From Patescibacteria group bacterium (lineage in GTDB: Bacteria; Patescibacteriota; Minisyncoccia; Phycocordibacterales; DATDWN01): DNA of 37,776 bases. The stretch is taken from the NCBI GenBank assembly GCA_030917185.1, contig JAUPVF010000050.1, forward strand, positions 1-37,776, given 5' to 3'. A program made the position numbers and the translations under genes. Each line of letters begins with the position of its first letter. The stretch's first letter is position 1. Below, one piece after another: positions 4,685-37,776 of the stretch. The notes under the pieces were generated by a model that had not been told where the DNA came from, ran no database searches, and saw nothing but the letters and a program-made list of their open reading frames with translations.

Positions 4685-5236
4685 ATGGCATACAATTTCA
4701 CACCATTTAGACAAAATATAAAAGAATTAGAAGAGTGGCTTAAACGAGAAATGGCTACCATTCGTACTGGTCGTGCAACACCTGCAATTTTGGATGGAAT
4801 AAAAGTTGAGGCATATGGCACCGAGATGCCAATCAATCAAGTTGCAAACATGTCCGTTGAGGACGCGCGAATGATTCGTATTACTCCGTGGGATGCAACA
4901 CAGACAAAAGCAATTGAGAAGGCAATCGTTGCAGGAGACCTCGGTCTTTCAGTTGCGGTTGATGGTGTTGGTTTACGAGTCACATTTCCAGAATTAACAG
5001 GTGAGCGACGTACCGCATTAATCAAAGTTGCGAAACAAAAATTAGAGGATGCTCGGGTGACGTTGCGGAATGAACGGGAGAAAATAATAAAAGATGTAGA
5101 TGCACAGGAAAAAAGTGGCACTATATCAGAAGATGAAAAGTTTCGTGTCAAAACAGAATTGCAGAAAATGGTAGATGAAGCAGGGAAAACATTAGATGAG
5201 GTGTTTGCTAAAAAAGAGAAAGAAATAACTGAGTAA
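4685..5236 (+). CDS. frr: ribosome recycling factor
   Basis: 183 aa. IRTGRATPAILDGIKVEAYG...LGLSVAVDGVGLRVTFPELTGERR...KLEDARVTLRNER is typical Frr. Confidence 0.95.
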   Translation: MAYNFTPFRQNIKELEEWLKREMATIRTGRATPAILDGIKVEAYGTEMPINQVANMSVEDARMIRITPWDATQTKAIEKAIVAGDLGLSVAVDGVGLRVTFPELTGERRTALIKVAKQKLEDARVTLRNEREKIIKDVDAQEKSGTISEDEKFRVKTELQKMVDEAGKTLDEVFAKKEKEITE

Positions 5237-5257
5237 AATAAAAATCTCTTTCTCATC

Positions 5258-5340
5258 ATATCTTTTTGAAACACGCGTTCGCGACGGGCTGTCGCGCCGC
5301 TCGGCTCTCGGCTACCCGCCTGCGACGGTTTCAAAAAGAT
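5258..5340 (+). repeat. GC-rich nested palindromic element, copy A
   Basis: ATATCTTTTTGAAAC ... GTTTCAAAAAGAT terminal inverted repeats enclose a GC-rich core. It differs from copies B/C only at six positions inside hairpin 5280-5296. Lies 21 nt after the frr stop. Confidence 0.85.
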
Positions 5341-5388
5341 GTGATTTCAACCAGATTTTTATACATTTGATCCATATCAATACAACAT

Positions 5389-6492
5389 ATGTCTGTCATC
5401 ATATTTATAATTGCACTTGCTGTTTTAATTCTTGTCCATGAGTTTGGGCATTTTATTGTTGCCAAAAAATCTGGCATTCGTGTTGATGAGTTTGGGTTGG
5501 GGTTACCACCCCGAGCATGGGGTAAAAAGTTTGGCGAAACCCTGTATTCTCTCAACTGGATTCCGTTTGGTGGTTTTGTAAAAATATTTGGTGAGGATAT
5601 TCACGAGGACCCAATTTCTGAACAAGATAAACCTCGTAGTTTTTATTACAAACCAAAATGGATTCAATCAGCGGTGCTCGTTGCCGGAGTAACATTCAAT
5701 GCTCTTTTTGCATGGTTACTTATTTCCGTCGGATTTATGATTGGTTTTCCATCTCCAGTTAATTACGTTAAAGACGTTGCAATCAAAGATCCTCACGTGG
5801 TGATATTGCAAGTGCTTCCAGAATCGCCAGCAGAAAAATCAGGTCTTAAATCAGGGGACACACTATTGTTTGTAGGTGCAGGCAACAATTCTTTACAAGA
5901 CGAGGAATTAACTCCAGAACACATTTCATTATTGATTAAAAATAGTAATGGAGAACAAGTTCAAATGTTATATCGACGAGGGGACACTCCTACCCAGACG
6001 ATTTTTATACAACCAAAAACAGGTTTAGTTTCTGATGGGTTTGGTGTCGGTATTTCTATGGATACAATCGGCACACTAAAACTTCCTGTCTGGCAGGCAC
6101 TGTATGAAGGTGGCAAAACTACAGTTGGTCTTATCAAAACAACAGTAATCGGTCTCGGTACATTTTTATGGAATGCGGTGACATTGAAAGCCGACTTGTC
6201 TCAGGTTGCTGGTCCGGTCGGTATTGCTGGTTCCGTTGGTGAGGCACGACAATTGGGTTTTGTATATCTGCTATCACTGGTTGCTCTTATTTCTATTAAT
6301 CTTGCAGTTATCAACCTTGTGCCATTTCCTGCGCTTGATGGGGGACGACTATTATTTATTTTGATTGAGGTTATTATTCACCGACCAATACCACCGAAAG
6401 TATTTCAGTGGGCTAACGCGGTTGGTTTTGCTTTTCTGTTATTGCTTATGTTTGTCATTACGGGGCACGATATTCTTAAATTATTATTGTAA
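5389..6492 (+). CDS. rseP: RIP zinc metalloprotease RseP (site-2 protease, M50 family)
   Basis: HEFGHFIVAKK zinc motif, PDZ-like middle region, NLVPFPALDGG C-terminal motif, multiple TM segments. Confidence 0.9.
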   Translation: MSVIIFIIALAVLILVHEFGHFIVAKKSGIRVDEFGLGLPPRAWGKKFGETLYSLNWIPFGGFVKIFGEDIHEDPISEQDKPRSFYYKPKWIQSAVLVAGVTFNALFAWLLISVGFMIGFPSPVNYVKDVAIKDPHVVILQVLPESPAEKSGLKSGDTLLFVGAGNNSLQDEELTPEHISLLIKNSNGEQVQMLYRRGDTPTQTIFIQPKTGLVSDGFGVGISMDTIGTLKLPVWQALYEGGKTTVGLIKTTVIGLGTFLWNAVTLKADLSQVAGPVGIAGSVGEARQLGFVYLLSLVALISINLAVINLVPFPALDGGRLLFILIEVIIHRPIPPKVFQWANAVGFAFLLLLMFVITGHDILKLLL

Positions 6493-28871: not shown

Positions 28872-29918
28872 ATGGATATTACAACTATTATTTTTGTGGT
28901 GCTTGCTCTTGGTGTCGGTATGGCTCTTATGTATTTTTTACGTCCGAGTGCTAAACAGGCCGATACTACAGGGCTTAATCTCATCCTACAGCAGATCAAT
29001 GAGTTAAATCGTACGGTGGATAGTAAAATTGGCGAAAGCACACGTCATATGAATGAATCAGTTCGGGTACAATTGGGTGAATCAGCGAATTTGATACGTG
29101 AAGTCACCAAGGGTTTAACACGTCTGGATGAGACAAACCGGCAGGTTGTTTCCTTTGCTGACCAACTCCAAAACCTGCAAGATATTCTAAAAAATCCAAA
29201 ACAACGTGGGGTACTTGGTGAGTATTATTTAGAGACACTTTTGAAAAATGTTTTACCTCCAGGAAACTATCAAATGCAGTACCCGTTCCTTAATGGTGAA
29301 ATTGTGGATGCTGTGGTGTTTGTAAAAGACAAAATCATTCCAATTGACTCCAAATTTTCATTGGAAAATTATAATCGTTTGGTTGAGGCGAATGATCCAG
29401 CCGAGAAAGATCGTTTAGAAAAGTTGTTTGTAAATGACCTGAAACTACGTATTACTGAAACATCAAAATATATTAGACCAGCAGAGGGAACGATGGATTT
29501 TGCTTTTATGTTTATTCCACACGAGGCAATTTATTATGATTTATTGATTAATAAAATTGGTGCAGTTACAGATGATACGGAAAATCTAATCCAGCGTGCA
29601 GCCGGTAAATCTAAAGTTATTATTGTTTCTCCAACTTCATTTTTGGCATATTTGCAGACTGTATTGCAGGGGTTGAAAGCCATGCAGATTGAAGAAACGG
29701 CCAAAGATATTATAAAGCGAGTGGGGGAACTTGGTACTCATCTAAAAAAATATGAGGATTATCATAATAAACTTGGTAATTCTTTGCATACCGTTGTTAA
29801 TCATTTCAATGCGTCAAGTAAAGAGTTCAAAAAAATGGATAAAGACGTGATGCGTATCACTGAGACGGGAGTTGACCTAGATATCCCGTTAATTGAGAAA
29901 CCGGAAGGGGAGGAATAA
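28872..29918 (+). CDS. rmuC: DNA recombination protein RmuC
   Basis: N-terminal TM helix, coiled coil, NPKQRGVLGEYYLETLL and a C-terminal nuclease-like region typical of RmuC. Confidence 0.9.
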   Translation: MDITTIIFVVLALGVGMALMYFLRPSAKQADTTGLNLILQQINELNRTVDSKIGESTRHMNESVRVQLGESANLIREVTKGLTRLDETNRQVVSFADQLQNLQDILKNPKQRGVLGEYYLETLLKNVLPPGNYQMQYPFLNGEIVDAVVFVKDKIIPIDSKFSLENYNRLVEANDPAEKDRLEKLFVNDLKLRITETSKYIRPAEGTMDFAFMFIPHEAIYYDLLINKIGAVTDDTENLIQRAAGKSKVIIVSPTSFLAYLQTVLQGLKAMQIEETAKDIIKRVGELGTHLKKYEDYHNKLGNSLHTVVNHFNASSKEFKKMDKDVMRITETGVDLDIPLIEKPEGEE

Positions 29919-29928
29919 TCGTTAAAAT

Positions 29929-30029
29929 CCCCTCTCATATCTTTTTGAAACACGCGTTCGGGCGGGGCTCGCCCGCCGCTCGGCTCTCGGCTACCCGCCT
30001 GCGACGGTTTCAAAAAGATATAAGAGGGG
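29929..30029 (+). repeat. GC-rich nested palindromic element, copy B (core 29937-30021)
   Basis: The core is identical to the reverse complement of copy C. Extra outer arms CCCCTCTC / AAGAGGGG. Lies 10-18 nt after the rmuC stop. Confidence 0.85.
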
Positions 30030-30088
30030 ATGAATCTAAGTGCTATGGAGTTGCTTTTTTTTGGGTTTTTTTGTATGATACAGGAACT

Positions 30089-30406
30089 ATGGAATTTGCA
30101 GTAATACACACAGGGGGAAAACAATATAAGGTTTCCAAGGGTGAAATCGTTAAAATTGAGAAAATCAAAGGCGATTTCAAGGTAGGGGACAAGGTCTTGT
30201 TTGATAAGGTTATGTTGGTAGACAGTGGAAAAGAAGCCACAATAGGTACTCCATATATAGCAAATGCAAAAGTTGAAGGCACTTTGACCGAAATCGGACG
30301 CAATAAAACAGTGGAGGTTGTCAAATACAAGCAAAAATCTCGATACTACAAGAAAAATGGTCATCGACAGCCATGGTTCAAAGTAACAATTGATTCAATC
30401 AAATAA
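30089..30406 (+). CDS. rplU: 50S ribosomal protein L21
   Basis: ORF 29945..30406 trimmed to MEFAVIHTGGKQYKVSKGEIVKIEK. The upstream part of the ORF is read-through of repeat copy B. Confidence 0.92.
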   Translation: MEFAVIHTGGKQYKVSKGEIVKIEKIKGDFKVGDKVLFDKVMLVDSGKEATIGTPYIANAKVEGTLTEIGRNKTVEVVKYKQKSRYYKKNGHRQPWFKVTIDSIK

Positions 30407-30411
30407 CAAAA

Positions 30412-30440
30412 AACAGTTTCCTCTCCAGGAAACTGTTTTT
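30412..30440. terminator. bidirectional terminator between rplU and 30439..30666
   Basis: AACAGTTTCC (30412-30421) pairs with GGAAACTGTT (30428-30437), with an A-run before and a T-run after. Confidence 0.8.
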
Positions 30441-30666
30441 AATTTTGTGTCAAAAATTTTAATATCAATCTTTTCCGATGGATATGAGTATTGCCTGACT
30501 TTCCTTTCAAAAGTCTAAAGATCATTCTTGCCTGTTCATTAGGGCTTAGATTAACAAACATCAAGACAAAAGCTTCTTCTTCCTCTTTGTCTCTCTGCCT
30601 ACTCATCTCCTCTTCCTTCTTGAGGGCGTCAATTTCCGCCTGCGTGTATGTTCTGTTAAGTGCCAT
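30439..30666 (-). CDS. hypothetical 75-aa charged protein
   Basis: ATG 30666 with GGAGG 6 nt upstream (the track starts at an upstream GTG). Confidence 0.6.
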   Translation of the reverse strand: MALNRTYTQAEIDALKKEEEMSRQRDKEEEEAFVLMFVNLSPNEQARMIFRLLKGKSGNTHIHRKRLILKFLTQN

Positions 30667-30738
30667 AAAAACCTCCACTGTTAAGATTACTCATTTTCTA
30701 TGTTTTGCCAAGGGCTGCCCTTGGATTGTTTGTGTCTA

Positions 30739-31356
30739 TTATTGTCTATTTTTTAGGGCATTTTTGATTGTATCTGTATCAGAGTATTCAAGTTCTGTAC
30801 CAGTTGAAAGTCCTCTGCCGAGAGTTGATAGTTTGATTTTTGCTGGTGCGGTTATTGGCTCTAGAATGTGTTGGAGATATGACAAGGTGTTTTCACCTTC
30901 AGGGTTATAATTGAGTGCGATGATGATTTCTTTTAGTCCAGATTGGATTTTTGTTTGTAAGACTGCAATGAGTTCTTTTTGGCGGATTTTATATTCTGGA
31001 TTTTTTTCTAAAATAGGGATTGTGCCACCAAGAATAAAATAATAGCCGTTGTATAGTTTTGTTTTTTCTATGTTTTCAAAATCAACGTCGTGGGAGACGA
31101 GCATGAGAGTTTCTTTATCCCTGTGTTCATTGCGACAGATAGGGCAGTGAGTATTTTCTGTATTATCTTTTTGGAAAAACCGATAGCATGATTCACATGA
31201 ATATACTTCAGATCTGATACTGGCTATTAATTTAGCAAGTTCATTGGCGTACCCATTTTTACGTGTCAGTAAAAAATAGACAAAACGCTTGGCCTGTCGA
31301 GGGCCAATTCCTGGGAATTCTTTAAATAATTCGATCAGTTTCTGGGTGTTATCCAT
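30739..31356 (-). CDS. recR: recombination protein RecR
   Basis: FPGIGPRQAKRFVYFLL HhH motif, CxxC zinc finger (CESCYRF...CPICRN), Toprim region. Confidence 0.92.
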   Translation of the reverse strand: MDNTQKLIELFKEFPGIGPRQAKRFVYFLLTRKNGYANELAKLIASIRSEVYSCESCYRFFQKDNTENTHCPICRNEHRDKETLMLVSHDVDFENIEKTKLYNGYYFILGGTIPILEKNPEYKIRQKELIAVLQTKIQSGLKEIIIALNYNPEGENTLSYLQHILEPITAPAKIKLSTLGRGLSTGTELEYSDTDTIKNALKNRQ

Positions 31357-31400
31357 ATATAAAATTTGAAAAATTAAAATGTTCGTTGAGGTATGTTGTT

Positions 31401-31515
31401 TTTTGAGGTTTGATCATATCTTTTTGAAACCGTCGCAGGCGGGTAGCCGAGAGCCGAGCGGCGGGCGAGCCCCGCCCGAACGCGTGTTTCAAAAAGATAT
31501 GTCAAACCCTCAAAA
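31401..31515 (-). repeat. GC-rich nested palindromic element, copy C (core 31416-31500), inverted relative to A and B
   Basis: The core is the exact reverse complement of copy B. Outer arms TTTTGAGGTTTGATC / GTCAAACCCTCAAAA. Lies 16 nt after the dnaB stop (minus-strand operon). Confidence 0.85.
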
Positions 31516-31531
31516 CAAAGTTAAACCACTA

Positions 31532-32923
31532 TTAGAAATCACTAAACTCTTTTTCTGCACCACGGAACTCTGCTTTTTCCATGCTTTGGAACGTGGCTTT
31601 TTTATCATTAAAGAACAATTCAACTTTACCCGTCTCGCCATTTCGGTGTTTCTCTATCAAAATCTCAGCGATATTGGTACGTTCTGCTTCATCTTTGTAT
31701 TTATCTTCACGATGAATAAACATAACCACATCAGCATCTTGTTCAATAGAGCCGGAATCTCGCAAGTCGGACAAACGTGGACGTCCTCCACGTTGTTCAA
31801 CTGCTCGGGAAAGTTGTGAGAGAGCAAGTACCGGAACATCTAATTCACGAGCAAGATTTTTGAGGGATCGTGATATTTCTGTTACTTGTTGCACAACATT
31901 ATCATTTTTTGTTTGTGTTGGTACCATGAGTTGCAAGTAATCAACAACAATCAAACCCAATCCGTGTTCGCTTTTCAGTCGGCGGGCGATTGAACGCATT
32001 TTTAAGATATTGTTTCCTGGTTGATCATCAATGAAAATCGGTGCTTTGTTTAACTTGTCTAATGACTCGCGGATTGCTTCAAAATCGTCTTGGCGGGATA
32101 GTTTACCTGTACGGAGTTTCCATGCATCCACGTTTGCCTGGGCGGCTAGCATACGGTCAACAAGTTGCTGGGAACTCATTTCCAATGAGAAAATACCAAC
32201 TGGTGTGTTGTGGTTAACCGCTGTTTGTCGGGCAATGTCTAGTGCAAGTGATGTTTTACCCATACTTGGTCGGGCCGCAAGAATGACAAGGTCTGATTTT
32301 TGTAGACCGGCAAGTTTATTGTCTATTTCTGTAAATCCTGTTGGGATACCTCGCATACTTTGTCCTTCGGTGTGTAGTCTGTCTAAACGCTCCCATGCTT
32401 CTGCAAGTTCATCCCGCAAAGGAACGAATTTATGTGCGGTGTTAAAATTGGTAACTTCAAATAATTTCTTTTCAGCATTATCCAGCATTTCCTCTAATTC
32501 TTTGTTTTCATCGTAGCCGATTTGAGAAATATGATCTGATGCTTCTATCAGTCTTCTCATCATGTATTTTTTCTGTACTAACTGTCCGTAATATACGACG
32601 TTTGCCGAAGATGGAACGATATTTACGATTTCTGTGAGGTAGGTGTTGCCACCGATTTGATCAAGCCATCCTTTTTCTTTGAGTCGTGCAGATACGGATA
32701 ATAAATCAATTGGTTGACGTTTGCCAAACAATTCCATCATTGTTTCAAAAATAATACGATGTTTGTCTGAATAGAATGAGTCCAGTGTGACAATGTCGCT
32801 AATATCATGGAGTGCTTCTGGTCGAAGCATAATAGAACCAAGGAGAGCCATTTCCGCCTCGAGGTTTTGAGGTGGGATACGGAGTCTGTTAGGAAATGTT
32901 TGGGCTATAACGGTCTGGGTCAT
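31532..32923 (-). CDS. dnaB: replicative DNA helicase DnaB
   Basis: PPQNLEAEMALLGSIM N-terminal domain, Walker A ARPSMGKTS, Walker B LIVVDYLQLM, LSQLSR motif. Confidence 0.95.
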   Translation of the reverse strand: MTQTVIAQTFPNRLRIPPQNLEAEMALLGSIMLRPEALHDISDIVTLDSFYSDKHRIIFETMMELFGKRQPIDLLSVSARLKEKGWLDQIGGNTYLTEIVNIVPSSANVVYYGQLVQKKYMMRRLIEASDHISQIGYDENKELEEMLDNAEKKLFEVTNFNTAHKFVPLRDELAEAWERLDRLHTEGQSMRGIPTGFTEIDNKLAGLQKSDLVILAARPSMGKTSLALDIARQTAVNHNTPVGIFSLEMSSQQLVDRMLAAQANVDAWKLRTGKLSRQDDFEAIRESLDKLNKAPIFIDDQPGNNILKMRSIARRLKSEHGLGLIVVDYLQLMVPTQTKNDNVVQQVTEISRSLKNLARELDVPVLALSQLSRAVEQRGGRPRLSDLRDSGSIEQDADVVMFIHREDKYKDEAERTNIAEILIEKHRNGETGKVELFFNDKKATFQSMEKAEFRGAEKEFSDF

Positions 32924-35577: not shown

Positions 35578-37776
35578 TTATTTTTTAGTAAAAGGGATAC
35601 CTTTTGAGCCCCACTGTGAGAGCATGATTGAAAAGTCTACAGAATCAACTTTATTATCTTTGTTTATATCAGCACATGAATTTCTGAATGGAGGTTTTGT
35701 TTTCCAGTATGAAAGCAAGATAGAAAAATCTACAGAGTTTACTTTGCTGTCTTTATTTAAGTCAGCACCATTACATGTTCCTGTCGATACTGGTTGTTCA
35801 GTAACTGGAGGGATGGTTGGTGCAATACCTGCACCGCCACCACTACCGCCAGCCCCACCACCACCTGACGGAGGTGTCGTTCCTCCACTTGTTGTGATTG
35901 TAAATGATCGGGATGCTCGAGATGATTCCGTTCCGAAAAATGCAGCCAATTTGAAGTAATAGGTGCCAGCGGTTGGAACTGTTGCACTTAGGTTGGTGTT
36001 AAAGTCTTCTCCAGGGTTAATGTATTTTGCAGCTGTCCCGTGGAAGATATCATCTCCACCACCACAGGTGTTGTTTATATTTGAAACAACACACCATTCA
36101 TATTGGTATTCATATCCTGCCATACCTTCGTTTGTGATTGTTACGTTGGCGCTTGCGGTTGGAGTTGTACCAGTGACACTATTTATAATAACCTGAGGAG
36201 GAGAAGTTGTGACGTTCCAATAGTCATTACCGGGTAGTGTTTTCCCACTTTCAACGGTTGCAGATATAACACTTTCCCACACGCCACCGGTAGCACTGCC
36301 ACTTGTTGTGTATGAATATCCATATGTTCCTATACTTGTTCGTGTCATAGGTGCAGCGTTGACTATCACATTTCTATTTGGGTCGTATATTGTGATTGTT
36401 GGGGTATTTGCTGAATCAGTTACTGTGCCATTGTATAAGGTATTTACGGTTGCTAAATATGTACTACCGGCAGAGATTGTTCCAAAGTCAGACATGGTGA
36501 CTGTCCATGGTGATTGAGATGACAGAGTGAGAGAGGTTAGTGTTCGTGTTGCTGAATTCCACACATCAGCTGCTAAGGTACCAAATGATGTTAATGTTCT
36601 ACCAGAATATGCCCAGACATTAGCAGGCAGTGAGGTAATCATGCTACCAATGGATGTTGATGCATTACTAATCGCTGTGTTGGTGTTTCCGTTAATGACC
36701 GCTGCCAAACTTGATGATGCAGTACCAACCGTACTATTCGTGTTTGCATTGATTGTCGCTGTCTCTCCGGTTACATCAGACTGTGTTGCCAAGTTGCCTG
36801 TTAGCAAGTTTGCACCAGTGAGTGTTCGGGTACTGTTATTCCATACATCAGCCGCGAGTGTTCCAAATGTTGACAGACTTCTACTACCATATGCCCACAC
36901 AGTTGCTGGGAGTGATGCAATCATTGAACCGATTGATGTTGAGGCATTACTGATTGCGCTGTTTGTATTTGCATTGATTACACTTGCAAGTGATGATGAT
37001 GCGGTACCAATTTTACTATCCGTGTTGGCATTAACAGTGGTTGCGATACTTTCTGTTTGTGTATTTGTATTTGAATTAACCTGTGAGGTGATTGAGGTTG
37101 ATGCATTTTGTACATCGGTTAAGGTTGCCAGACTACCTGAAGACAAACCAGCGCTGGTTAGTGTACGTGTTCCGTTGTTCCATACATCAGCAACAAGTGT
37201 TCCGAATGTTGTCATACTTCGTGATCCGTATGCCCATATTGTTGCTGGTAGGGAAGTGATCATTGAACCGATTGATGTTGATGCGGTGTTTGTATTTGCA
37301 TTCACTAATGTGACGATTGAACTTGAAGCATTCGCTACTGTACTGTTCGTATTTGCATTGACTGCTGATGTAATGCCACTTGTATTTGAAACGATTGAAG
37401 TGTTAAGAGATGTTGATGCGGTTTGTATGTCAGATAATGTTGCAAGTGATCCAGTAGTGAGCCCACTTCCAGTTAGTGTTCGTGCTGTGTAATTCCAAAT
37501 ATCAGATGCGGTCAATGATCCTCCTGCGACGCTTCCTACTGCAGCATTAAGATTGTCTACAACTTGTTTTCCGACACTTCCACTTGTATTGAGTGTTGAA
37601 GTTGCTGTATTCCACACATCAGCCGCGAGTGTTCCGAATGTTGACAATGATCTCGTTGGATTTGTCCACACATCAGCTGCCAAGGTACCAAATGACGTTA
37701 ATGTCCTACCAGAATATGCCCAGACATTAGCAGGCAGTGAGGTAATCATGCTACCAATGGATGTTGATGCATTACT
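35578..37776 (-). CDS. large repeat (adhesin-like) protein ending in a type I dockerin; N-terminus outside the window
   Basis: The frame stays open upstream of Met 37749 to the window edge (SNASTSIGS continues the repeat). Repeats of SIGSMITSLPAxVWAYxxRxLxxFGTLAADVWN, then a Gly-rich linker. The C-terminal dockerin pair is DLNKDSKVNSVDFSILL / DINKDNKVDSVDFSIML. Confidence 0.85.
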   Translation of the reverse strand, partial: SNASTSIGSMITSLPANVWAYSGRTLTSFGTLAADVWTNPTRSLSTFGTLAADVWNTATSTLNTSGSVGKQVVDNLNAAVGSVAGGSLTASDIWNYTARTLTGSGLTTGSLATLSDIQTASTSLNTSIVSNTSGITSAVNANTNSTVANASSSIVTLVNANTNTASTSIGSMITSLPATIWAYGSRSMTTFGTLVADVWNNGTRTLTSAGLSSGSLATLTDVQNASTSITSQVNSNTNTQTESIATTVNANTDSKIGTASSSLASVINANTNSAISNASTSIGSMIASLPATVWAYGSRSLSTFGTLAADVWNNSTRTLTGANLLTGNLATQSDVTGETATINANTNSTVGTASSSLAAVINGNTNTAISNASTSIGSMITSLPANVWAYSGRTLTSFGTLAADVWNSATRTLTSLTLSSQSPWTVTMSDFGTISAGSTYLATVNTLYNGTVTDSANTPTITIYDPNRNVIVNAAPMTRTSIGTYGYSYTTSGSATGGVWESVISATVESGKTLPGNDYWNVTTSPPQVIINSVTGTTPTASANVTITNEGMAGYEYQYEWCVVSNINNTCGGGDDIFHGTAAKYINPGEDFNTNLSATVPTAGTYYFKLAAFFGTESSRASRSFTITTSGGTTPPSGGGGAGGSGGGAGIAPTIPPVTEQPVSTGTCNGADLNKDSKVNSVDFSILLSYWKTKPPFRNSCADINKDNKVDSVDFSIMLSQWGSKGIPFTKK
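36530..37776 (-). repeat. long in-frame tandem repeats inside the dockerin gene
   Basis: Repeat heads (MIT/ASLPA) at nt 37749, 37263, 36927 and 36642. Segments 36561-36669 and 37668-37776 differ at only about 3 of about 110 positions. Confidence 0.8.

What the first reader, a model, noticed from the sequence alone, without database searches (positions are those of the whole stretch)
29929..30029. GC-rich nested palindromic element family: identical cores after rmuC and dnaB, same orientation relative to transcription
Seen in sequence:
- The 85-bp cores 29937-30021 and 31416-31500 are exact reverse complements. A third copy lies at 5258-5340.
- Each core has the 15-bp terminal inverted repeat ATATCTTTTTGAAAC / GTTTCAAAAAGATAT around about 55 bp of very G+C-rich sequence in an AT-rich genome.
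- Each core is nested in further, copy-specific outer inverted repeats.
- All three begin 10-22 nt after a stop codon (frr, rmuC, dnaB) and precede a co-directional gene (rseP, rplU, recR).
- All three would be transcribed in the same sense, which has a 1 in 4 chance if orientation were random.
Inference: an RNA-level role analogous to REP/BIME-type intercistronic elements (mRNA 3'-end protection, a processing site or a protein-binding site), rather than a neutral MITE. None is followed by a U-tract, so they are not classical terminators.
Basis: partly seen in the sequence, partly recalled or inferred. Interest (0 to 1): 0.65.

Follow-up and report, generated by a model that had tools for sequence, protein, structure and literature searches.

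The report
YPAL-like mobile palindromic repeat family
Three copies of an ~86-bp G+C-rich hairpin-forming repeat sit just after genes in this candidate-phyla-radiation bacterium; they are small mobile DNA elements distantly related to the Yersinia YPAL repeats, and they are present, absent or flipped in close strains, so a fixed, orientation-dependent RNA role is not supported.

Summary
There are three copies (5258-5342 +, 29937-30021 +, 31416-31500 -) of an 85-89-bp unit with a 15-17-bp terminal inverted repeat around a 55-nt, ~70% G+C core. Two copies are identical. Each lies inside further copy-specific inverted repeats just after frr, rmuC and dnaB. The genome is a Parcubacteria (CPR) bacterium.

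The unit behaves as a small mobile element, not a fixed RNA gene:
- A strain with 98%-identical RmuC has an empty rmuC-rplU site that lacks the whole ~121 nt, both outer arms included.
- The filled site carries an 11-nt direct repeat, and the left arm is an inverted copy of that duplicated target.
- At the frr site a sister strain has the element inverted.
- Hairpin-1 alleles are shuffled among loci, one strain has a 72-nt insertion in hairpin 2, and short-read assemblies break inside the element.

The closing stem and junction (UUGAAAC-ACGC...GCUCG...ACGG-UUUCAA) recur in Gammaproteobacteria as a strongly covarying three-way junction. There the core equals the centre of the Yersinia YPAL/RU-2 repeat.

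No Rfam family matches and there is no terminator signature. An RNA-level effect on flanking mRNAs remains possible, but an orientation-dependent function is not supported.

The parts
5238..5362 (+). Copy W1 with its outer arms, between frr (4685-5236) and rseP (5389-6492). Arms are 5238-5272 / 5328-5362. The outermost pair is ATAAAAATCT/AGATTTTTAT, separated from the TIR by a 7-nt mismatch.
   Evidence: (I3, D6). The orthologous copy is inverted in L033 and in the same orientation in L032.
5258..5342 (+). W1 repeat unit: TIR 5258-5272 and 5328-5342 (one mismatch), 55-nt G+C-rich core 5273-5327.
5280..5296 (+). W1 hairpin 1, allele B (CGCGAC-GGGCT-GTCGCG). It differs from allele A by three compensatory pairs.
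   Evidence: The same allele B is found at the rmuC site of strain L046.
29927..30031 (+). Copy W2 (the finding) with its outer arms, between rmuC (28872-29918) and rplU (30089-30406). Arms are 29927-29951 / 30007-30031.
   Evidence: (I5, I1).
29937..30021 (+). W2 repeat unit: TIR 29937-29951 / 30007-30021, core 29952-30006, hairpin 1 allele A at 29959-29975.
29915..30035 (+). Segment present in the window but absent from the empty rmuC-rplU site of strain L047 (~121 nt; the limits depend on how the duplicated target is assigned). It supplies the TAA stop of rmuC.
   Evidence: Global alignment. Sequences.
29906..29916 (+). Left copy of the duplicated target, AGGGGAGGAAT (the end of rmuC).
   Evidence: left versus right, direct: 10/11 identical.
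30025..30035 (+). Right copy of the duplicated target, AGGGGATGAAT. It forms most of the right outer arm. The left arm ATCCCCTCT (29927-29935) is its inverted complement.
   Evidence: (I5).
31401..31515 (-). Copy W3 with its outer arms, between dnaB (31532-32923, -) and recR (30739-31356, -). Arms are 31401-31430 / 31486-31515.
   Evidence: (I4, I1).
31416..31500 (-). W3 repeat unit, the exact reverse complement of W2. Core 31431-31485, hairpin 1 allele A at 31462-31478.
   Evidence: (I1).

Best explanation
The three copies belong to a family of small non-autonomous mobile palindromic elements (MITE/REP-like).

Structure:
- The unit is 85-89 bp: a 15-17-bp terminal inverted repeat around a 55-nt asymmetric G+C-rich core.
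- As a single strand it folds into a three-way junction: a closing stem UUGAAAC/GUUUCAA plus CG/CG, hairpin 1, GCUCG, and hairpin 2.

Behaviour:
- New copies land in, or a few bases after, the 3' end of an ORF.
- At the one insertion that can be reconstructed, about 11 nt of target (up to about 20) is duplicated directly, and about 9-12 nt of it is also laid down in inverted orientation on the other side of the unit. This lengthens the element's stem with copy-specific sequence.
- Once in place, a copy can flip by exchange between its arms, can swap hairpin-1 alleles with other copies, and can itself be hit by other small insertions in a hairpin loop.

Relationship: the closing stem and junction are shared with elements of several Gammaproteobacteria, whose core is the centre of the Yersinia YPAL/RU-2 repeat.

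Shown: mobility (filled and empty sites), target duplication, inversion, allele shuffling, the structure and its covariation, the relationship to YPAL-type cores.

Inferred:
- The mobilising activity is unknown. I favour a replication-linked fold-back or template-switch step, or an unidentified enzyme acting in trans on the hairpin form.
- When transcribed, the very stable hairpin may affect mRNA 3' ends. I treat this as a by-product, not as the reason for the element.
For: Repeat and structure:
-.
- Short-read contigs carrying frr, dnaB or recR all end inside the element.

Mobility and rearrangement:
- Empty rmuC-rplU site in L047, where RmuC is 98% identical. The window has 121 extra nt that include both outer arms, with the direct repeat AGGGGAGGAAT/AGGGGATGAAT.
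- The frr-rseP spacer is 30 nt in relatives with 80% Frr identity. The dnaB-recR spacer is 47 nt in relatives with 74% RecR identity. The window has 152 and 175 nt.
- Inversion: the inner 105 nt of W1 are 92.4% identical to the reverse complement of L033 against 68.8% forward (sequences).
- Hairpin-1 alleles A and B are distributed patchily: W1 is B; L032 and L033 are A at the same site; W2 is A; L046 is B at the same site.
- L046 has a 72-nt insertion in the hairpin-2 loop.

Family:
- A genome scan with the TIR pair found 4 of 11 hits that also carry NCGC, GCTCG, ACGG, two hairpins and copy-specific arms. A metagenome scan found 4 more.
- Covariation: 90.7% of cells paired, 28 pairs with changes on both sides, 0/500 shuffles as good.
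- Arms are 32-38 nt, 97-100% complementary, with exactly 52 nt between them.
- Model R1 scores the Yersinia elements at 60.2 bits. They equal the printed RU-2 sequence (PMC2759123).
- The core-only model R2 ranks W1-W3 as the top three hits in the window (22.5-22.8 bits, E about 3e-4), on the sense strand.

Negative results that fit:
- No Rfam family and no terminator-like site.
- No protein gene shared among the loci and no transposase-like gene in the window.
Against: - Only one insertion (W2) has a close empty site. The other two empty sites come from relatives too diverged to align the spacers, so the arrangement 'direct plus inverted target copy' rests on one case.
- L047 could in principle be a precise excision rather than a never-occupied site. 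Either way the site is polymorphic.
- The dnaB-recR empty site of relatives contains a weak dyad (TATTTTTGGAG-A-CTCAGAAAAATA) resembling the outermost W3 arms. Some arm sequence may therefore pre-exist, as reported for YPAL targets (PMC2229807).
- Similarity of the window copies to the YPAL-type core is confined to the 21-nt closing stem and junction plus the architecture. The relatives were found with a pattern taken from that stem.
- No mobilising enzyme was found.
- Singleton copies are mostly sense to the genes, which a purely neutral element need not be.
Confidence: 0.65

Rival explanations
1. The element is kept for an RNA-level job in the mRNA: a 3'-end-protecting hairpin, an RNase processing site or a protein-binding site between cistrons, acting in one orientation as REP/BIME and ERIC elements do.
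For: - All three window copies are sense and start 1-16 nt (outer arms) after a stop codon, ahead of a co-directional gene.
- Singleton relatives and the first copy after a stop codon are sense in 9 of 10 cases. Some lie inside operons: ccmF-ccmG, hisH-hisA, dut-algC.
- Stability is extreme.
- The internal helices covary and tolerate G.U.
- YPAL elements are reported to be co-transcribed with upstream genes and possibly to influence their mRNA stability (PMC2229807).
Against: - The rmuC-rplU copy is dispensable in a 98%-identical strain.
- The frr copy is antisense in a sister strain.
- The second copies of pairs are antisense to the operon.
- G.U pairs sit on the element's own strand in the antisense copies too. 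In those mRNAs they would be A.C mismatches.
- The outer arms are almost purely Watson-Crick, as expected for DNA-templated palindromes.
- The hairpin loops are not conserved between the window subfamily (GGGCU, UACCC) and the relatives (UCCA).
Confidence: 0.2
2. The unit inserts into the loop of pre-existing hairpins (terminators or other dyads). On this view the copy-specific outer inverted repeats are simply the old target stems.
For: - YPAL targets span or adjoin dyad symmetry (PMC2229807).
- In Yersinia the duplicated target is a terminator-like or small hairpin.
- A weak dyad exists at the dnaB-recR empty site.
- L046 shows an insertion into a hairpin loop of the element itself.
Against: - The close empty site for W2 has neither arm.
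- The arms are not followed by U-tracts (sequences).
- The arms of relatives are 32-38 bp and perfect, far longer than normal terminator stems. Two such arms lie within the hisH-hisA spacer.
Confidence: 0.1
3. The element works at the DNA level for the cell: a cruciform or hairpin site for recombination, inversion or replication-linked processes. The pair W2/W3 would be a switch that can invert the 1.4-kb rplU-recR segment.
For: - W2 and W3 are perfect 86-bp inverted repeats flanking rplU, a 79-aa ORF and recR (I1).
- Inversion between short arms did occur at the frr copy.
- L034 joins the frr flank to the dnaB flank through the element.
Against: - Each of W2 and W3 still has matching left and right outer arms. 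The segment between them has therefore not been inverted since the arms formed.
- L034 is a 2.3x-coverage contig and may be a chimeric join at the repeat.
- The sites are dispensable.
Confidence: 0.05

Closest known systems
YPAL / RU-2 (Yersinia palindromic sequences, ~168 bp; De Gregorio et al. 2006, Delihas 2007)
   Same: - The ~60-nt centre of YPAL (UAAAG-ACGCC-hairpin-GGCUCG-hairpin-ACG-CUUUA) is the same three-way junction as in the Gammaproteobacterial relatives (82% identity; 60.2 bits; fold).
- It shares with the window copies the ACGC / GCUCG / ACG(G) junction motifs, two hairpins and a closing stem.
- The target duplications are long and of variable length: 14-15 and 20-21 nt in L040 and L039, 11 to about 20 nt at W2, and 3-26 bp in the literature.
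- It sits in spacers next to ORF 3' ends.
- No transposase is known.
   Different: - The window unit is half the size.
- Its hairpin sequences and loops are unrelated to those of YPAL.
- YPAL carries about 55-nt imperfect arms that are the same in every copy. In the window only 15-17 bp are shared and the rest of the stem is specific to each copy.
- The host is a CPR bacterium, not an enterobacterium.
- Core-only model similarity is limited to the closing stem and junction.
REP / BIME / REPIN elements (RAYT-associated)
   Same: - G+C-rich palindromes in spacers close to the 3' ends of upstream ORFs.
- They are often in clusters of alternating orientation.
- G.T pairs occur in the stems (PMC3733652).
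- The relatives here occur as inverted pairs.
   Different: - There is no GTAG head.
- The unit is a branched 55-nt core inside a long stem, not a 20-40-nt simple hairpin.
- Target duplication is present.
- No RAYT gene could be looked for.
Classical bacterial MITEs transcribed into mRNA (Correia/NEMIS, ERIC/RU-1)
   Same: - Terminal inverted repeats and insertion polymorphism.
- A long stable stem-loop when transcribed.
- Location between co-transcribed genes.
   Different: - Those elements are A+T-rich, end in TA and duplicate TA.
- Here the core is G+C-rich, the duplication is long, and an inverted copy of the target is added.
Coxiella QMITE2 (Wachter et al. 2018)
   Same: - Found mostly in 3' UTRs or overlapping ORF ends by a few bases.
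- The direct repeats are unique to each copy.
- It folds into a very stable hairpin.
- Relatives exist in other classes.
   Different: - QMITE2 is 150-190 bp and contains a GTAG REP that is an IS1111 target.
- No sequence was available for comparison.

Membership tests
YPAL / RU-2 | Sequence and structure similarity to the YPAL core | tested here: inconclusive
   - Model R2, built from YPAL plus 13 Gammaproteobacterial cores, ranks W1-W3 first in the window (22.5-22.8 bits, E about 3e-4; the next hit is 11.7 bits).
- The alignment uses only UUGAAACACGC...ACGGUUUCAA and skips the hairpins.
- The Gammaproteobacterial relatives pass clearly.
YPAL / RU-2 | A unit of about 168 bp with conserved internal inverted repeats shared by all copies | tested here: not met
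   The shared unit in the window is 85-89 bp. Sequence outside it differs between copies.
YPAL / RU-2 | Target-site duplication of variable, often long, size (3-26 bp) | tested here: met
   - At W2: AGGGGAGGAAT / AGGGGATGAAT, with both flanks collinear with the empty site for about 20 nt.
- Only one copy was testable.
YPAL / RU-2 | Targets span or adjoin dyad symmetry | tested here: inconclusive
   - No dyad at the close W2 empty site.
- A weak dyad at the diverged dnaB-recR empty site.
REP / REPIN | A 20-40-nt imperfect palindrome with a conserved GTAG or CGTC head | tested here: not met
   - No GTAG.
- GACGG (CCGTC on the other strand) lies at the 3' junction in 7 of 12 copies, but the unit is a branched 55-nt core.
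REP / REPIN | A cognate RAYT (TnpA-REP) gene flanked by the repeats | not testable with these tools
   - The whole genome is not available.
- No such gene in the window or in the fetched loci.
Classical MITE | Terminal inverted repeats, target duplication and filled/empty polymorphism | tested here: met
Classical MITE | A parent insertion sequence with the same ends | not tested
   - No IS with these ends was seen in the window or the fetched loci.
Intrinsic terminator | A G+C-rich stem followed directly by a U-tract | tested here: not met
   No terminator-like site at any copy. The only strong one in 29700-31700 is at 30409-30440.
Any Rfam family | A match at the gathering score | tested here: not met
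   - Only a tRNA in the window.
- Nothing in 8 relatives' loci.
- Sub-threshold hits are generic long hairpins such as miRNA precursors and STnc400.
Integron attC | R''/R' boxes RYYYAAC / GTTRRRY at the outer ends of a variable palindrome, in cassette arrays | tested here: not met
   - The stem is TTGAAAC / GTTTCAA and lies at the inner end of the stem.
- The flanking genes are housekeeping genes.

The most novel reading that the evidence does not exclude
One family of structured mobile elements is shared between CPR bacteria and Gammaproteobacteria and spreads without a conventional transposase. The conserved three-way-junction core would be copied into a new site by a hairpin fold-back or template-switch process, or by an unknown enzyme that recognises the junction. 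That process would write an inverted copy of the target next to the core, so that every copy builds its own long perfect stem. This would explain the variable target duplications of YPAL, the perfect 32-38-bp copy-specific arms, the flip-flop orientation and the inverted pairs.
Probability: 0.25. Interest if true: 0.75.

Novelty: new variant of a known kind. Interest (0 to 1): 0.5.

Why it matters
- How YPAL-type repeats move has never been established. This material offers a reconstructable insertion, because a filled and an empty site exist in near-identical strains. That insertion shows a direct and an inverted copy of the target.
- The material also includes an inversion polymorphism, and relatives in two very distant bacterial groups. 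Together these make the mobilisation mechanism testable.
- Practically, the element breaks short-read assemblies of these CPR genomes.
- It also supplies a stop codon to rmuC and a spurious upstream start for rplU, so it matters for annotation.

Tried and rejected
- Rfam, at gathering and permissive thresholds, on the window and on relatives: nothing specific.
- Literature search by sequence strings: nothing. The original YPAL paper (PMC1636318) is not held, so YPAL properties are cited from reviews.
- Viral contigs, phage records and E. coli genomes: no copies. The window copy against plasmids gave only chance G+C-rich matches.
- A shared neighbouring gene that could encode a mobilising enzyme: none. 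No transposase-like gene in the window.
- CsrA-type GGA hairpins. The antisense strand of the Gammaproteobacterial copies reads UACAUGGAUGUA. I dropped this because the window subfamily has different loops.
- A short ORF starting at the TTG of TTGAAAC. Its length and stop are inconsistent, and the variation fits base-pairing rather than codons.
- Ribozyme, attC and terminator readings: the defining motifs are absent.
- The replication-strand orientation rule of IS200/IS605-type elements: GC skew is positive across the whole window while copies lie on both strands.
- Aligning the diverged empty sites for W1 and W3 to find their duplications: unreliable.

Full report
**1. The observation**

- Arms 29936-30021 and 31416-31501 are perfect reverse complements over 86 nt. 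5256-5340 is 93% identical to 29935-30019.
- The 15-nt terminal repeat ATATCTTTTTGAAAC occurs six times at the three copies. With up to two mismatches the window has 8 matches against 0.36 expected.
- In each copy 55 nt separate the arms. This core is 0.67-0.70 G+C in a window of about 0.40 G+C.
- Each unit lies inside further inverted repeats that differ between copies. With the TIR included, the arms are 25 nt at 96%, 30 nt at 87% and 35 nt at 83% (I5, I4, I3).
- The RNA folds are -54 to -64 kcal/mol with z-scores of -8 to -10.
- NCBIfam confirms frr, rseP, rplU, recR and dnaB, and weakly RmuC.
- All three cores are in the sense of the flanking genes.
- The cores start 21, 18 and 31 nt after the stop codons, and the outer arms 1, 8 and 16 nt after them.
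- There is no terminator-like site at any copy.
- The six differences between copy 1 and copy 2 are three compensatory pairs in one hairpin: CGGGCG-GGGCU-CGCCCG against CGCGAC-GGGCU-GUCGCG.

**2. The organism**

The closest Frr, RecR and RmuC homologues are named Parcubacteria, Zambryskibacteria, Paceibacterota or Patescibacteria by their sources. The window therefore comes from a CPR bacterium. Short-read (Logan) contigs that carry its frr, dnaB or recR all end inside the element, as expected for a multi-copy repeat.

**3. Relatives elsewhere, and the structure**

- A scan of one genome per species with only the two terminal repeats gave 11 hits. Four of them (Lysobacterales, Legionellaceae, two Halieaceae) also have NCGC after GAAAC, GCTCG in the middle, ACGG before GTTTC, two internal hairpins and their own copy-specific flanking inverted repeats.
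- A metagenome scan with those motifs found four more.
- The alignment supports a three-way junction: a long stem ending in UUGAAAC/GUUUCAA plus CG/CG, hairpin 1 (CGUGAA-stem-UCCA-stem-GGCUCG) and hairpin 2 (8 bp, UCCA loop).
- Covariation is strong: 90.7% of cells are paired, 28 pairs have changes on both sides, and no shuffle of 500 is as good.
- A covariance model built from these found second copies, in the opposite orientation and 50-170 nt away, in five of the eight loci.
- Their arms are 32-38 nt, 97-100% complementary, with exactly 52 nt between them.
- No Rfam family matches.

**4. The closest known family**

- The core of one relative matches Yersinia plasmids at 82% identity, and the model scores them at 60.2 bits.
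- That Yersinia element is the reverse complement of the 168-nt RU-2 of Y. pestis CO92 printed by Delihas (PMC2759123). RU-2 is YPAL.
- The two Yersinia copies are flanked by direct repeats of 20-21 and 14-15 nt that are themselves small hairpins.
- This fits the published description: duplications of 3-26 bp, targets at dyad symmetry, internal inverted repeats, co-transcription with upstream genes (PMC2229807).
- A core-only model that includes YPAL ranks the three window copies first in the window (22.5-22.8 bits, E about 3e-4, sense strand). It does so only through the closing stem and junction.
- I therefore regard the window subfamily as a distant relative of YPAL-type cores, not as YPAL.
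- Caveat: the relatives were found with a pattern taken from the window's stem. The independent evidence is the junction motifs, the architecture, the spacer length and the arms.

**5. Mobility**

- Strain L047, whose RmuC is 98% identical, has an rmuC-rplU spacer with no element. The window has 121 extra nt that include both outer arms.
- The insertion lies in the last codons of rmuC and supplies its TAA.
- It is bounded by AGGGGAGGAAT and AGGGGATGAAT, and both flanks stay collinear with the empty site for about 20 nt.
- The right outer arm is therefore the duplicated target, and the left arm ATCCCCTCT is an inverted copy of it.
- Strain L046 (RmuC 96% identical) has the site filled, with hairpin-1 allele B and a 72-nt insertion in the hairpin-2 loop.
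- Relatives at 74-80% protein identity have 30-nt frr-rseP and 47-nt dnaB-recR spacers. Those spacers are too diverged to reconstruct the junctions.
- The dnaB-recR empty site does contain a weak dyad resembling the outermost W3 arms. Part of an arm may therefore pre-exist in some cases.

**6. Flipping and exchange**

- In L033 (Frr 95% identical) the frr copy is inverted together with about 20 nt on each side. The inner 105 nt match the window at 92.4% as reverse complement against 68.8% forward, with breakpoints in AAAAATCT/AGATTTTT.
- L032 has the window's orientation but hairpin-1 allele A.
- Alleles A and B are thus shuffled among loci and strains, which points to exchange between copies rather than repeated compensatory mutation.
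- L034 joins the frr flank to the dnaB flank through the element. This could be a recombinant or a chimeric low-coverage contig.

**7. RNA role**

For:
- the position in transcribed spacers;
- sense orientation of singletons and of the first copy after a stop codon in 9 of 10 cases;
- the stability of the fold;
- G.U pairs in the internal helices.

Against:
- the empty and inverted alleles;
- the antisense second copies;
- G.U pairs that stay on the element's own strand in the antisense copies;
- outer arms that are almost purely Watson-Crick;
- loops that are not conserved between subfamilies.

I conclude that an incidental effect on mRNA ends is plausible, but an orientation-specific function is not supported.

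**8. Mechanism**

- Shown: insertion with a direct and an inverted target copy (one case), inversion, and allele exchange.
- Inferred: a step in which the single-stranded unit folds on its terminal repeat and the adjacent target is copied back. Alternatively, an unknown enzyme acts on the junction.
- No candidate gene is shared by the loci and none lies in the window.
- Other Parcubacteria carry other subfamilies with 32-42-nt arms, again as inverted pairs. This style of element is therefore common in the group.

**9. Verdict**

This is a real repeat family: a new, distant variant of the YPAL/REP/MITE kind in a CPR genome. The functional inference from orientation is not. Interest is moderate. 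The main value lies in the reconstructable insertion and in the cross-phylum core.

Noticed in passing
window 35578-37749 (-): A 723-aa ORF built of five or six internal repeats of about 282-339 nt (D1-D5). It has a C-terminal dockerin type I domain and no NCBIfam match. The neighbouring 592-aa and 271-aa ORFs have no family match at all.
   Followed up: partly
window 29945-30406 (+): An ORF starts at the TTG inside the element (TTGAAAC) and reads in frame into rplU (true start 30089). The exact 105-aa RplU is not on record in the gene collection, so gene callers probably extend rplU into the repeat. The same reading frame exists at the dnaB copy (31349-31492, -).
   Followed up: partly
L046 2500-2571: A 72-nt insertion (TCCTTACAGG...CGCTTCTC) lies exactly in the hairpin-2 loop of the rmuC copy in a sister strain. 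It is itself hairpin-forming and may be another small mobile element.
   Followed up: no
L034 1300-1470: The frr-side flank is joined through the element to the dnaB-side flank of the window. This is either recombination between two copies or a chimeric join in a 2.3x-coverage assembly.
   Followed up: no
L032 1-9900: A sister strain has about 10 kb of phage-like genes (NinG, DNA methylase, DUF2828) directly upstream of frr. Its Frr has a different, longer N-terminus (217 aa).
   Followed up: no
L035 14974-18300 (also L036-L038): A 487-aa gene with a weak Transposase_20 (IS110-family) hit is flanked by about 250-nt repeats. It lies about 730 nt from a palindromic element with 32-nt perfect arms. 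IS1111-type elements are known to target REP-like hairpins.
   Followed up: partly
L048 4053-4423: In an 86%-RmuC relative, downstream of rmuC, there are two larger elements of another subfamily. Their arms are 42 nt at 90% and 32 nt at 94%, around cores of about 100 nt, and the two cores are reverse complements of each other (an inverted pair).
   Followed up: partly
window 30409-30440: A 14-bp bidirectional terminator-like hairpin with A and T tracts lies between convergent rplU and a 79-aa ORF. It is the only strong terminator signature in 29700-31700.
   Followed up: no
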